Assembly (NCBI GenBank): GCA_951406725.2
Contig: OX597821.1
Location: forward strand, 41,230,001-41,294,000
DNA length: 64,000 bases
Reading direction: 5' to 3'
DNA from: Octopus vulgaris
Lineage: Eukaryota
Below are positions 395 to 61,827 of this stretch, piece by piece (within the stretch, counting starts at the first letter, position 1; every line of letters starts with the position of its first letter). The position numbers and the translations under genes were made by a program. The notes below the pieces were generated by a model that had not been told where the DNA came from, ran no database searches, and saw nothing but the letters and a program-made list of their open reading frames with translations.

Positions 395-628
395 AAATAA
401 TAGTTATCGCCATACTAATATGGCATTCTTATAAAAATAAGAATAAAGCTGTCCGCTTATTAGCTCCATGAGGCCATCGCCTTAAGTTAGCTATTTGATA
501 CACAAACTGTATCCATATAACCTTCGAACAAGCTAACTTAAGGCAATGGCCTCATGGAGCTAATAAGCGGACAGCTTTATTCTTATTTTTATAAGAATGC
601 CATATTAGTATGGCGATAACTATTATTT
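395..628. repeat. Fold-back inverted repeat, about 98-bp arms, 38-bp spacer
   Basis: 395-492 is the reverse complement of 531-628 with one mismatch seen; it ends in a (TA)n tract. Confidence 0.95.
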
Positions 629-8625: not shown

Positions 8626-8779
8626 ATATATATATATATAAAGTTTCTAGTTCGAATCACACGTGTCTCGAGATGTGCCGAAGATTTCTATTTTGGATAT
8701 ATTTGGGGTACTTAGGTATGCTCAGGACTTAGTGCTTGTTTTTTCCATGGGTATGAGTAAGTATTTCATATATGTCTTA

Positions 8780-8850
8780 CGTATTTATCGCTGAAGAGGG
8801 GAAAATTCTTCTGAATTAACCCCGAAATTGGGACCAATACGGTAATAACG
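8780..8850 (+). ncRNA. Type I hammerhead ribozyme, apparently intact
   Basis: CUGAAGA 8791-8797. Helix II GGGG/CCCC plus AAUUC/GAAUU. GAAA 8824-8827. Helix III AUUG/CAAU with GGAC loop. AUA site 8837-8839. Helix I uuaucg/cgguaa, extended by cgu/acg. Confidence 0.8.
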
Positions 8851-8994
8851 AATTTTTTAGAAATTTCTATCGGCTTGTTTCGAGACGCATAAATTATAAT
8901 GGTTATTGACAATTTTGTCTTTTTTCGGCATATTTGGCATTAGAATTTTTCTTTTGCCCTTATTTTATAAGTTTTATATATATATATATATATT

Positions 8995-12761: not shown

Positions 12762-13473
12762 CGAAGGGAAGACAAAAAATATCCGTGCTTTCGCTATAAC
12801 ATATCTTTGTTATTTACACACTGCCTCCCGCACATGCGTACTTATAGTTTGCATTATTGTGGTCACGTGATCGAAGTTTGGGCCTGATCGTGCCATTTTC
12901 CCTTCTTACTTTAAAGTGTAAGCATGGCCTCTCCACTAGCAAGGTGCACGTAAGAAGAACAAAGAGCAGTGATCCGATTTCTCTGGAAATGGGATGAACA
13001 ATCAGCAGTGCAAAATACAGCGCTTTACTGACCAACAAACTGAAGCCAGCAATTCGCACCAAACGCCGAAGCTTATTGTCGAAAAAATTCTATTGTTGCA
13101 TGACAATGCACACCCACATACGGCCGCCCAGACCGTTGAAACCATTAAACAACTGGGTTTTGGGGTGCTGGAACACCCTGCCTACAGCCCAGATCTTGCC
13201 ACTTCTGACTATCATAACTTTGGACCAATCAAAGATGGTTTACGAGGTCATCGATTTTCTACAGGTTACGATGTGAGGGAAGCGGTGCATAAATGGTTGT
13301 ACGACCAACTGAAAACCTTCTCCTTGGAGGAAATACACATGCTTGTGGACCGCCAGACCAAGTGGATCGAAATGGAAGGAGACTATATAGAAAAATTACG
13401 TACTTGTTTATCCCCTGCTCTTGTGTAAATACATTGAAAAACAAGAGGGCCTATTATTTTTGACTCTCCCTCG
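12762..13473 (+). mobile_element. Internally deleted mariner (D,D34D) transposon
   Basis: ORF 12994-13428 has LLHDNAHPH...HPAYSPDLATSDY with 34 residues between the two Ds. Imperfect TIRs cgaagggaagacaaaaaata / tatttttgactctccctcg, with TA on both sides. Confidence 0.92.
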
Positions 13474-16999: not shown

Positions 17000-17242
17000 G
17001 TGAAGTATATTTGCCACTTAAGTGTGGCTAACCCTTAAGGATCGATGGTACTGTAGCTTATAGCCCCAGGAAGACATCTCCTCCAGCTGGCTATTGACAC
17101 ACTATCTGTGCCCTGTAAGTACTTGCAAAGGGAAGTCATCGTTCCCAATAGCCAGCTGGAGGAGATGTCTTCCTGGGACTACACGCTACAGTAGCATCGA
17201 CCCTTAAGGGTTAGCCATACTTAGGTGGCAAATATACTTCAC
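17000..17242. repeat. Fold-back element, 97-bp arms, 49-bp spacer
   Basis: 17000-17096 versus 17146-17242, about 7 mismatches. The insert is flanked by the direct repeat cagtcaatta(c/t)tg (16988 and 17276). Confidence 0.95.
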
Positions 17243-29546: not shown

Positions 29547-30370
29547 CTAAATCTTAAGAAAGTTTTGTAGATGTTTATTGTCCCACATATCATGATCGTT
29601 CGTAGCGTATGAATTAAGGATTCGTATTCTCTCCCCCAAGAACCCAAGTTCAGCCAAACTTTGCTCCAGACAGGTTGGTATGTGTCCTGTTGCTCCAATA
29701 ATAATAATGATAGGTGTGAAACTGAAAGTGCATCTTGGATACCGGATTTGCAGATTCCTTATCAATAGTTCGTAGATGTCTTCTTTCTCTGGTATTTTTC
29801 TAATCACATACATGTCTAAAATGCAGCTGATTTCCACAATAGAACCTATCTTTTCTTTGTGGTTGCACACAACGATATTTGTGGATTTTTTAATCTTGAA
29901 GTTCCACCAATAATCAATATGGTCAACGTCGTTTGTAACTATTCTCTTTTTTGTTCCAGACCGTTCTGGCCACCGTGTCATACCTCATGGGAAGATCATA
30001 TCTGTAAAACATTCTCTCAAAAGTTGGCAATAATATGGCTGACGTCTTCGGTCTTGTTCATGCAAAGCCTACATTTGTTGTTTGTCAACGTTTTCTACCT
30101 TTCATGTTAAAATACCTTTTGTGGTCTACATTTTCTACCTTTTATGTTCTGGGTATTTGGTGAGGTCACTTGTTCTTGGATTGCATGGATGTTGCTTTCA
30201 AAGTGTGGTATGTCATCAACTTGTTGATTCTCTATGCCAAGCTTTTGACTGAATCACTCTTGTCTATGGCTTGTGGTTCACGTGCCAAGTACCCGTGCAC
30301 TATGTTCTCATTGAACTGGTTCGATTTACTTCTGTTGATCTGAATAGATTTTATCAATGCTCCTTGTATC
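29547..30370 (-). mobile_element. R4/Dong-like non-LTR retrotransposon C-terminal fragment (CCHC and restriction-like endonuclease)
   Basis: HGYLAR, AIQEQV, NKCRLCMNKTEDVSHII, YWWNF, IVEISC...EKEDIYELL...PIIIIIGATGHIP. Confidence 0.8.
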
Positions 30371-37011: not shown

Positions 37012-37525
37012 ATTATGGCTGCCCCCTCGTTATCGAGTATGGCCATTGCAAGAAGCTTAACTGTTACTGGTGCTGTGATCGAATGTGACTTTTTAGCCCA
37101 GCTAAAGATCTACAATGTCTTATACAAAATTGGCAACTACAATCTTTACTGGTAATAGCCGGTTGTAGTTGTAACTGCACTTCATGTACCTTTGCAAGTC
37201 GTTTAAGTCCTCCTGCCGAATTACATTCTCTTCCACATGCCCAACAGATATGATTAGTATAGTGTGTAACACCACCACCAGTGGCCAGGTTGTCACTCGT
37301 CTGTCTTGTTTTATGACTACGAAGATGACTCATACATACATACATACATACATACATACACACCACACACACATACACAAAGACATATGTACATGCATAT
37401 ATACATACATACATGTAACACTGGATTCTGCGTTAGAAGTTAGACTCTTCCCTTCTTCAATGTGTTGTCTTTGCCAACCTTTTGTACTTATGATTCTCTT
37501 ATGCACACCTGTACTTGTTCTCTTG
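37012..37525 (-). mobile_element. RTE-like LINE 3' end with C2H2 fingers, split by (CATA)n
   Basis: HLRSH...CWACGRECNSAGGLKRLAKVH...CQFCIRHCRSLAGLKSHIRSQH, then 3' UTR and an (ATGT)n tail. Confidence 0.75.
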
Positions 37526-59735: not shown

Positions 59736-60650
59736 TCTAATCCTGGTTTGAAATATGAAGAAATGCTTATCCGCCTTGTAATAGCTGTGAAGGATCACAT
59801 GAAGTTAAATGCATCATTTTCACAATAAACATATGGTCGTTAATCCGCTAATATTTAATTATAAGTTATGAAAATATGTAAACTTCTACATTTTCTAGTT
59901 GGTCAAACTTTAAGTAGAACCATTCATCTAATTCTTGTTTCCCTTTGTCTTTAACAGCAATCAAGTATTCTGAAGTAATTAACTGTTTTATGAAAAAGAA
60001 CACGAAATTAAGAGAAACATCTTTAGAAATACACAAAAATTTAAATCTAAATTCTCGTCAAAAAAAAAAAGGGAAAAAATACTAATTTAATTAGGCACTT
60101 CATAGTTAAAAAGACTTCAAATATAAAATTTATTTTTCTGTGACATTTTTAATTCATGACAATAAAAAAAAACAATATTTTTTTTAAAGAAAAGGAAAAA
60201 CTAAAGAATTTAAGGAATAATGCAATGGTTGTATGAGTGAGAGGATTTGTTCAAACATCAGTTTAATGTTGACTGATTTATAAACTAGAAAGCAAACTTT
60301 TTCTCTGATCCATTGAAACATGTCAGATTTATTTTAATACGGGTCGAGAATTCGTTGGAACTAAGATAAATCCTGTTTTTCTCTCTAAGTTCCAAAGCTT
60401 GATTATTTTTAACGTTCAGTTTCTAATAGCAGCTAAAAGTTGTATTTTTAGATTAGATTTAGTTTTTACTTGAAAATTCAGTGAAATAAATTCTAGGAAA
60501 GTATTTTATTTAAAGAAAGAATTTAATCTAACCTTTGGTGAAGTAAATATATATCTAGCAACGAGATTTTGGTCATATAAATAAATGCATGCACACACAC
60601 ATGCTTTAATACATATGTATGTATATTCTTATATCTATCTGTCTGTCTGA

Positions 60651-60761
<111 letters not shown>

Positions 60762-60804
60762 ATTATAAATATATTATATTTATTATATTATAATATATAT
60801 ATAT

Positions 60805-60850
<46 letters not shown>

Positions 60851-60954
60851 TATATATATATATTATATTATATTTTGTGAAATTTGATTTAGTATTTCTA
60901 AATTTAATTTTTCTCTGTAAGTAAGGAATAATATTCCCTCAAATAATAATAATA

Positions 60955-60989
<35 letters not shown>

Positions 60990-61001
60990 GAGAGAGAGAG
61001 T

Positions 61002-61566
61002 AGTGGTGCAACAAGGCACCAATATTTACTGGAAATAGCAGTCAATACATTTATGATGCTACATTAATGCTTCACTGCCTATATACTGGCAAAGATGTGA
61101 GGGTGCAACAAACATGAAAAATTTTGTCTTACACCTAGAAAGAACATTAGATAAATGGATAACCTAGAATCAGATAATCCAGTACCTAGGTTTCGAACTC
61201 TTCAAATATGTATGTCAACGTAAAATTAATTAGTCTTCATCAGCTGGATTTACCTGGACAATATTTCAAATGTTGCTACATCAATGCCAGTATACTCACC
61301 TGAATGCTTAGCTGCTAACAGACCGAGAACAGTGAAAAAGTTTTCAATGAAAATTAAAATATTGCAATACAAATGTATTACTTTCCAGTAAAATAAAGCA
61401 CCGAAAAGGTAGAAGTATAAATATAGAAAAGTGGTACAACAAGGCACCAATATTTACTGGAAATAGCAGTCAATACATTTATGATGCTACAGTAAAGCTT
61501 CACTGTGTATATACTGGCAAAGATGTGTGAGTGCAACAGACATGAAAAATTTTGTCTTACCTCTAG
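61002..61566 (-). mobile_element. Hammerhead-containing element with 137-bp direct repeats at a 428-bp period (retrozyme or Penelope pLTR-like)
   Basis: 61002-61138 closely matches 61430-61566; a hammerhead motif lies between them. Confidence 0.7.
61170..61257 (-). ncRNA. Type I hammerhead ribozyme
   Basis: Helix I aatccag/ctggatt (7 bp, extendable). CTGATGA 61243-61237. Helix II gact/agtt with an A.C closing pair. GAAA 61194-61191. Helix III palindrome ACCTAGGT. GUA site 61185-61183. Confidence 0.78.
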
Positions 61567-61812
61567 GTGCTGGTGCCACAGGAAAGGCTCCCATGCCAAT
61601 GCTACATTGCAACATCGATGCCAGTGGCACATAAAAAGCATCCAGCACACTCTGTAAAGTAGTTGGCATTAGAAAGGGCATCCAACCATAGGAACCATGC
61701 CACAACAGGCAATTGGTGTCTGGATAGCTCCGTGCTAGTCAGTTCCATGTCAAACCATCCAACTCATGCCAGCATGGAAACCAGACGTTAAATGATGATG
61801 ATCATGATGATG
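61567..61812 (+). mobile_element. Meta-domain-like SINE
   Basis: gttggcattagaaagggcatcc...catgccagcatggaaaccagacgttaaa(tga)n. Confidence 0.8.
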
Positions 61813-61827
61813 ATATATATTATATAT

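What the first reader, a model, noticed from the sequence alone, without database searches (positions are those of the whole stretch)
61002..61566. Hammerhead inside a 1.3-mer tandem repeat with a 428-bp unit, as expected from a circular template
Seen: 137-bp direct repeats 428 bp apart enclose a minus-strand hammerhead with a 7-bp helix I, ACCUAGGU palindromic helix III and GUA site. Established: retrozymes and Penelope pLTRs appear as partial tandem repeats, and palindromic helix III supports dimeric cleavage. Inference: this is an integrated copy of a circular RNA of about 428 nt, reverse-transcribed more than once around.
Basis: partly seen in the sequence, partly recalled or inferred. Interest (0 to 1): 0.85.

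Follow-up and report, generated by a model that had tools for sequence, protein, structure and literature searches.

The report
Aged Penelope-type hammerhead retrozyme copy
This is one old copy of a multicopy, protein-less jumping repeat that carries a predicted self-cutting RNA motif, a known kind of animal genome parasite; it was likely pasted in by a Penelope-type enzyme from a fixed start point, and whether the RNA template was a circle is untested.

Summary
Observation confirmed: two 137-nt repeats 428 nt apart (127/137 identical) enclose one minus-strand type I hammerhead. The element is a multicopy family: 1,480 contigs of one DNA run lie on the unit, and it is in four DNA and three RNA-labelled runs. 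Its ends are not randomly permuted. Copies share one 3' end cluster (61416-61432, equal to 61002 here) joined to (TA)n, with inverted 5' pieces and no target duplication: the Penelope-like (PLE) insertion pattern. No RT/GIY-YIG ORF is linked. A sister variant in one RNA-labelled run keeps a 7-bp helix I by a compensatory change and a different palindromic helix III, which supports a selected, dimer-type ribozyme. This copy is old (about 4% decay), has one ribozyme, and cannot release a monomer alone. Best reading: a non-autonomous PLE derivative (non-LTR retrozyme) inserted by target-primed RT from a fixed internal site. A circle and an uncut tandem transcript both give this product; I could not separate them. 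New lead: the start site lies in a predicted unpaired linker holding the unit's only TA-like stretch, a possible primer-annealing site. The scan has found this class many times on other DNA of this genome. New member of a known kind.

The parts
61002..61429 (-). One full 428-nt unit, read 61429 to 61002; non-coding, 33% G+C, strongly self-paired
   Evidence: circular fold -105.2 kcal/mol, z -4.7 (0 of 60 shuffles as low); no long ORF in six frames
61430..61567 (-). 5'-truncated partial copy in front of the full unit (pseudo-LTR)
61002..61138 (-). 3' part of the full unit, the second repeat; ends at the family's shared 3' end
   Evidence: loose ends at 61416, 61430, 61432; 61430 minus 428 = 61002
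61176..61250 (-). Type I hammerhead: helix I 61250-61244 with 61182-61176, core 61243-61237, extra A at 61236, G10.1-C11.1 at 61235/61195, long helix II, palindromic helix III 61191-61184, predicted cut 61183/61182
61382..61463 (-). Predicted three-way junction across the unit boundary: 11-bp helix (61463-61453 with 61392-61382), two small hairpins, 20-nt unpaired linker that holds the shared 3' end
   Evidence: 9 central pairs at probability 0.79-0.99; an 11-bp perfect inverted repeat arose in 37 of 1000 shuffles
61416..61425 (-). The unit's only TA-like 10-mer (9 of 10 letters), just past the 3' end of insertions; possible primer-annealing site or relic of an old target
   Evidence: such a 10-mer anywhere in 315 of 3000 shuffles, within the last 20 bases in 5 of 3000
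60642..61001 (.). Microsatellite flank at the 3' end: (TA)n, (ATT)n, (GA)n
61568..61814 (.). Part of an unrelated, very abundant SINE-like repeat abutting the 5' end; not part of the element
   Evidence: 6 other places in the window; depth far above the element's from 61624 on

Best explanation
This is an aged copy of a multicopy, non-coding repeat with one predicted hammerhead per 428-nt unit, likely a non-autonomous Penelope-like element (non-LTR retrozyme) written into a (TA)n tract by a borrowed Penelope-type reverse transcriptase that likely started at a fixed internal site. Steps: (1) Shown: a family of related units exists, joined head to tail in many copies. (2) Inferred: a structured RNA longer than one unit, or a one-unit circle, is bound by a PLE RT/GIY-YIG protein made elsewhere. 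(3) Inferred from shared ends: the enzyme nicks (TA)n and primes at one site, about 180 nt downstream of the ribozyme cut site. (4) Shown by the layout: copying crossed the cut site and the unit boundary and stopped 137-138 nt into a second round, or was trimmed there later. (5) Not decided: circle (about 0.5) or uncut tandem transcript (about 0.5). (6) Inferred: the ribozyme works as a dimer in multi-unit transcripts; this copy, with one ribozyme, would not release a monomer.
For: Multicopy: 1,480 contigs laid on one unit in DNA run X3, lowest bin depth 6,788 against about 50 for single contigs (summed depth is no copy number, order of a hundred or more); 20 of 24 listed runs hold part of it, under six organism labels. 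Fixed 3' end: 3 of the 6 loose-end rows shown for X3 lie at 61416, 61430, 61432 (41, 26, 14 contigs), two with (TA)n-like letters; RNA-labelled runs X15, X16 show ends at 61431-61432, and one X19 contig stops fitting at 61430. Inverted pieces: 3 opposite-strand joints among 15 shown, 1. No target duplication (longest shared word 4 nt). Partial tandem, inversion, microsatellite bias are PLE marks (PMC8557442). The PLE enzyme of PMC11167929 starts internally 111-118 nt into an ORF that begins at the hammerhead, and cuts AT-rich DNA. Hammerhead has the PLE marks of PMC4209133: extra base after A9, G10.1-C11.1, palindromic helix III. Sister variant with compensatory helix I pair and a 6-nt palindrome. 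Both repeats share 5 non-majority letters.
Against: No autonomous partner was found or could be searched for (empty), so the PLE link rests on insertion pattern only. Only 24 of 328 loose-end rows and 15 of 47 joints were shown. Two other X3 rows (behind 61463, 14 contigs; behind 61475, 27 contigs) mark further breaks in likeness, read here as sister subfamilies. The 5' end abuts a partial SINE, so the 1.3-unit length may not be original. The active fold is predicted to be a minor state (helix I probability 0.07 in the circle, 0.34 in the 1.3-mer). Most X3 depth differs from the window at two helix I places (61180, 61247) and I could not see whether 61180 is compensated. 8 of 9 Xenopus retrozyme dimers did not cleave in vitro (bioRxiv 2026.07.22.740005). 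The private changes are uneven: 8 in the left repeat, 1-2 in the right.
Confidence: 0.78

Rival explanations
1. One reading: integrated copy of a self-cleaved, ligated 428-nt circular RNA, copied more than once around. Compatible with the best explanation if the start site is fixed.
For: More than one unit; shared letters in both repeats; unit folds strongly as a closed circle; mussel 350-390 nt repeats give abundant circles (PMC7229834 section 14); the model is proposed for PLEs in PMC4209133.
Against: The linear unit folds as well (z -5.4). Ends are not randomly permuted. Uneven private changes (8 against 1-2; two-sided binomial about 0.04-0.07, computed by hand) fit two already different units slightly better than one circle. 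No RNA-seq reads ended at the cut site for the anole PLE (PMC11167929).
Confidence: 0.4
2. Template was an uncut linear transcript of a tandem or partial-tandem donor copy; the ribozyme played no part in this insertion.
For: Unprocessed RNA was the dominant template in vitro and ribozyme mutants inserted normally (PMC11167929). RNA-labelled contigs read across the cut site (records 1-3, 8, 16, 17). Helix I is mostly sequestered in predicted folds.
Against: Read-through of the cut site is also expected from a ligated circle or from DNA in the run. A compensated helix I and kept palindrome in a sister variant suggest that cleavage is selected.
Confidence: 0.38
3. The stretch is the 3' remnant or an internal-deletion product of one autonomous PLE (pLTR-deleted body-pLTR), not a self-standing short family.
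For: Layout equals a PLE with its ORF removed; depth peaks at 61244-61288 and 61424-61468 show segments shared with more sequences than the rest.
Against: The whole unit is covered at similar floor depth; another copy aligns without gaps over 432 nt (X1 record 1); many contigs bridge the unit boundary; no shown loose end leads into one common coding-like sequence; no Pfam hit in the 3 frames tested over the element.
Confidence: 0.1
4. LTR-type miniature element (TRIM) with 137-nt terminal repeats, or a local tandem duplication of a single monomer.
For: Repeat-middle-repeat layout; 7.3% divergence could date either event.
Against: No target duplication; no TG...CA ends; contigs run on through the 61567/61140 boundary; the unit boundary is present in many other copies; the 3' end matches the family's shared end.
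Confidence: 0.07

Closest known systems
Metazoan non-LTR retrozymes (Cervera and de la Pena 2020, PMC7229834; passages and sections 14, 17 read)
   Same: Type I hammerhead in a short, low-G+C, non-coding, self-paired repeat; 150-450 bp monomers; present in a mollusc (mussel, 350-390 bp).
   Different: Only 1.3 units and one ribozyme here; long helix II; circles and cleavage shown there, untested here; octopus is not mentioned in that paper.
Retrozymes as non-autonomous PLE sequences (Li, Clavereau, Pollet, bioRxiv 10.64898/2026.07.22.740005; parts 1-3 of 5 read, supplements closed)
   Same: Same proposed origin from pLTRs and mobilisation by PLE enzymes; many copies are monomers.
   Different: Their 'active' class needs two units with complete hammerheads, which this copy lacks; their link is by sequence homology in Xenopus, mine by insertion pattern only.
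pLTR hammerheads of endonuclease-positive PLEs (PMC4209133, parts 1-2 of 4 read; PMC8557442, passages)
   Same: Extra base after A9, G10.1-C11.1, palindromic helix III, long helix II with a bulge, partial tandem, inverted 5' piece, microsatellite target.
   Different: No RT/GIY-YIG ORF; 7-bp helix I is longer than the 4-5 bp of minimal PLE hammerheads; a 30-40 bp tail could not be resolved.
Poseidon PAc of the green anole (PMC11167929, parts 1-2 of 4 read)
   Same: Fixed internal RT start downstream of the hammerhead, in a structured region; AT-rich target.
   Different: PAc starts at a site not homologous to the cut DNA and at two sites; here one end cluster sits beside a TA-like stretch that could pair with the target.

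Membership tests
Non-LTR retrozyme | Type I hammerhead with full core | tested here: met
Non-LTR retrozyme | Short (150-450 bp), low-G+C, multicopy unit joined head to tail | tested here: met
   428 nt, 33% G+C; contigs bridge the unit boundary
Non-LTR retrozyme | No protein-coding ORF | tested here: met
   six-frame translation; no Pfam hit in 3 frames over the element
Non-LTR retrozyme (active copy, Li et al. criterion) | Two consecutive units with complete hammerheads | tested here: not met
   One hammerhead in this copy; no listed contig is long enough to show two for the family. This copy is a monomer in that scheme.
Non-LTR retrozyme | Self-cleavage as monomer or dimer | not testable with these tools
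   Dimer duplex of helix III -11.4 kcal/mol against +2.0 for the monomer hairpin is a prediction only
Non-LTR retrozyme | Accumulates as circular RNA | tested here: inconclusive
   75, 99 and 35 contigs in three RNA-labelled runs; kind is a guess and contigs show no end, strand or circle
Autonomous Penelope-like element | RT plus GIY-YIG ORF | tested here: not met
   flanks are a microsatellite and a SINE-like repeat
PLE-mobilised element | Fixed 3' end, partial tandem forming a pLTR | tested here: met
   loose ends. Scatter of 5' ends not counted.
PLE-mobilised element | Microsatellite target, inverted 5' pieces, no clear target duplication | tested here: met
PLE-mobilised element | Optional tail (two RT start sites) | tested here: inconclusive
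   Ends at 61416 and 61430 may be one site, because 61416-61425 resembles the (TA)n flank
PLE-mobilised element | Sequence homology to the pLTR of an autonomous PLE of the same genome | not testable with these tools
   No genome held; no locus in collection scans
LTR retrozyme / TRIM | Type III hammerhead in each LTR, 4-5 bp target duplication, TG...CA ends | tested here: not met
   Type I, outside the repeats; no duplication; PBS and PPT not tested

The most novel reading that the evidence does not exclude
The RNA is a circle that presents its own priming site: a three-way junction holds an unpaired linker whose TA-like stretch pairs with the nicked (TA)n strand, like the alignment region of telomerase RNA, which fixes both the target and the start of rolling reverse transcription by a Penelope-type enzyme. 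This would explain (TA)n targeting by RNA-DNA pairing as well as by the endonuclease, and differs from the non-homologous start reported for the anole element.
Probability: 0.2. Interest if true: 0.62.

Novelty: new member of a known kind. Interest (0 to 1): 0.3.

Why it matters
Mostly ordinary: hammerhead-bearing short repeats moved by Penelope-like elements are described, and this scan has noted many such families in this genome, several younger and easier to test. This copy adds two things. Its family shows from run data a fixed 3' end on (TA)n, so the test 'are ends circularly permuted' cannot decide for or against a circle. And it offers a concrete, testable priming site. How PLE enzymes choose their internal start and their microsatellite target is open (PMC8557442 discussion; PMC11167929). 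I found no paper on octopus hammerheads or on pairing-primed starts in endonuclease-positive PLEs; the library lacks most subscription journals, and unread supplements of PMC4209133 and PMC7229834 may list cephalopod motifs.

Tried and rejected
Whole-genome search: none held. Pattern scans of metagenome, viral and prokaryote collections: 0 matches in 4 scans. No listed holder is on record as RNA; RNA-labelled rows hold small shares. 'Two start sites 14 nt apart': withdrawn, may be an alignment effect (notes 1, 2). 'Family majority has a 2-bp helix I like D. virilis Penelope, with an intron ending at the core': withdrawn, since 61180 and 61247 are read from contig sets of threefold different depth and are unphased (note 4); no splice-like joint among 15 of 47 shown. 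Splice-site-like words near 61560, 61300, 61256 and 61135 are seen in the sequence only. Drop in RNA-run depth left of 61184-61199: in X15 explained by a sister variant with a loose end; in X16 and X19 not interpretable. Copies ending at the cut site: not among the 6 X3 rows shown, 304 rows unseen. Unit as an old dimer of 214-nt halves: one 18-nt match, 17 of 1000 shuffles as good, not convincing. Likeness to the second hammerhead element: none (170 of 500 shuffles as good). Local 111-nt fold is not unusual (z -0.16). Strong folding is not unique: 3 of 29 control tiles reached z -4 or lower, two being long inverted repeats. The O. vulgaris repeat paper names no hammerhead and its one supplement holds none of three motifs. 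Earlier findings by sequence and nearby: none.

Full report
Observation. 61002-61138 and 61430-61566 match at 127 of 137 letters with spacing 428. The minus strand carries a type I hammerhead from 61250 to 61176 with a 7-bp helix I, CUGAUGA and GAA cores, the self-complementary helix III word ACCUAGGU, and a GUA site cutting at 61183/61182. The descriptor hit 1 of 40 shuffled windows at this helix I length. Rfam gives nothing at gathering score and Hammerhead_HH9 at E = 0.0026 in a local search. There is one hammerhead only, and it lies outside the repeats. The unit has no long ORF and the three frames scanned over it have no Pfam hit. The window is AT-rich, microsatellite-rich animal DNA. That it is an octopus rests on my recall of its SINEs and on unchecked earlier notes; I did not test it.

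A family, not a local duplication. 20 of 24 listed runs hold part of the stretch, under six organism labels. All four DNA runs laid cover the whole element. On one unit (61139-61567), 1,480 contigs of run X3 were laid, with lowest bin depth 6,788 against about 50 for single contigs. Summed depth is no copy number, but it points to a hundred or more related copies. One contig in X1 aligns without gaps over 432 nt with 72 differences, so another copy has the same unit length. Several contigs bridge the unit boundary at 61429/61430 (X1 records 1, 6, 7; X2 15, 16; X9 31, 32; X3 28, 30, X15 7, X16 11), so head-to-tail joining is a family trait.

The ends. Of the 6 loose-end rows shown for X3 (24 of 328 rows shown in all), three lie at 61416, 61430 and 61432, with 41, 26 and 14 contigs; the first two continue into (TA)n-like letters. 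The window's copy ends at 61002, which is 61430 minus 428, against a (GA)n/(ATT)n/(TA)n tract. On the ribozyme strand this is the 3' end, about 180 nt past the cut site. So the 3' end is shared, not randomly permuted. I first read 61416 and 61430 as two start sites, then withdrew it: 61416-61425 is itself TA-like, so a flank of (TA)n can align on to 61416. Three of 15 joints shown change strand, as inverted 5' pieces would. No target duplication is seen. Partial tandem, inverted 5' piece and microsatellite bias are the PLE marks listed in PMC8557442 (passages). A purified PLE protein cuts AT-rich DNA and starts reverse transcription inside its RNA, 111-118 nt into an ORF that begins at the hammerhead (PMC11167929, parts 1-2). 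The 5' end abuts part of an abundant SINE-like repeat, so the length of 1.3 units may have been trimmed.

Age and lineage. The repeats differ by 7.3% (JC 0.077, 0.038 per copy). With the calibration in PMC13282606 (JC 0.09 for 25 My; passage) that is roughly 10 My, if the species guess holds. At five places both repeats share a letter that most X3 depth lacks (61472, 61482, 61485, 61490, 61524), so both came from one template lineage. Private changes are uneven, 8 in the left repeat and 1-2 in the right; this is borderline and unexplained. Four letters in the outer part of helix II (61209, 61212, 61225, 61228) differ from 88-99% of X3 depth; by eye the common letters pair and three of this copy's do not, so this ribozyme has decayed.

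The ribozyme in the family. It has the marks given for PLE hammerheads in PMC4209133 (parts 1-2): an extra base after A9, G10.1-C11.1, a long helix II with a bulge and a palindromic helix III. In RNA-labelled run X15, two contigs of summed depth about 199 of about 320 leave the window at 61189. Read by eye, their loose letters give a helix III palindrome two bases shorter (ACCGGU), a GUC site, and a changed letter at 61179 that pairs with the changed letter at 61247. Depth without that change at 61247 is only 45, so the deeper contig carries both: a compensatory pair in a 7-bp helix I. That is one variant in one run, but a kept palindrome with different letters fits selection for dimeric cleavage (dimer duplex -11.4 against +2.0 kcal/mol for the monomer hairpin). 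Against: 72% of X3 depth differs at 61180 and I could not see a compensating change; the active fold costs about 5 kcal/mol in the unit; 8 of 9 Xenopus dimers did not cleave (bioRxiv 2026.07.22.740005, parts 1-3). Three RNA-labelled runs of two studies hold 75, 99 and 35 contigs; the RNA label is a guess and contigs show no end, strand or circle.

Structure at the start site. The unit folds far better than its shuffles (z -4.7 circular, -5.4 linear, -3.1 for the other strand); 3 of 29 control tiles did as well. An 11-bp helix pairs 61463-61453 with 61392-61382 across the unit boundary and closes a three-way junction. The shared 3' end lies in its 20-nt unpaired linker, next to the unit's only TA-like 10-mer (5 of 3000 shuffles have one in the last 20 bases; I chose the place after seeing it). 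Both helix arms fall in depth peaks. A nicked (TA)n strand could pair there and prime. The stretch could equally be a relic of an old target. The domain needs RNA that runs through the boundary, which a circle and a tandem transcript both supply.

Mechanism. Most likely (0.78) a non-autonomous PLE derivative, copied by a borrowed PLE enzyme by target-primed reverse transcription from a fixed internal site. Copying crossed the cut site, so the template was not a cleaved linear monomer, which would give only about 180 nt from this start (inference). It was a ligated circle or an uncut multimer. Circles are shown for mussel repeats of 350-390 bp (PMC7229834, sections 14 and 17); uncut RNA was the dominant template for the anole enzyme. 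I rate them about equal. The partner enzyme is not identified.

Comparison and novelty. It works like a non-LTR retrozyme and bears PLE insertion marks. It is not an autonomous PLE (no ORF), not an 'active' retrozyme copy by the two-ribozyme criterion, and not an LTR retrozyme. Earlier notes of this scan describe many such families of other unit lengths in the same genome (unchecked AI notes), and none for this sequence. Verdict: new member of a known kind, aged copy, interest 0.3.

Noticed in passing
window 8641-8975, + strand; hammerhead 8785-8847: A second, unrelated type I hammerhead (6-bp helix I, CUGAAGA core, non-minimal helix III, AUA site) in a 335-nt stretch with (TA)n on both sides; fold z -5.9; no likeness to the 61 kb element; no Rfam match. 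Likely a truncated copy of another PLE-type family.
   Followed up: partly
window 395-628 and 17000-17242: Two long hairpin stretches (arms 89% and 85% alike), the first beside (TA)n; may be inverted PLE-type insertions; no complete hammerhead core found in them.
   Followed up: partly
window 61008-61134 against 61436-61562: Uneven private changes between the two repeats, 8 against 1-2; unexplained.
   Followed up: partly
window 61053-61070, 61270-61287, 61481-61498: An 18-nt word recurs at about half-unit spacing (16 of 18 alike; 17 of 1000 shuffles as good); could be a protein-binding motif or chance.
   Followed up: partly
window 61560-61580: The 5' end joins a partial SINE-like repeat through a short shared word (compare loose-end consensus before 61624, agreement 0.5); microhomology joining or a later deletion.
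   Followed up: no
window 61560, 61300, 61256, 61135 (minus strand): Splice-donor-like and acceptor-like words around the hammerhead; PLEs can carry introns here (PMC4209133), but no spliced joint was among those shown.
   Followed up: partly
window 12973-13428 (+), 29547-29984 (-), 37064-37432 (-): Transposon remnants: DDE transposase-like frame (DDE_3, E 0.00035, below cut-off), a frame that by recall resembles the C-terminus of an R4/Dong-type non-LTR element (no Pfam hit), and a C2H2 zinc-finger-like end.
   Followed up: partly
run X19, window place 61244: One deep contig (534 of 672 depth) changes the first helix I base next to the core; its partner is not covered.
   Followed up: no
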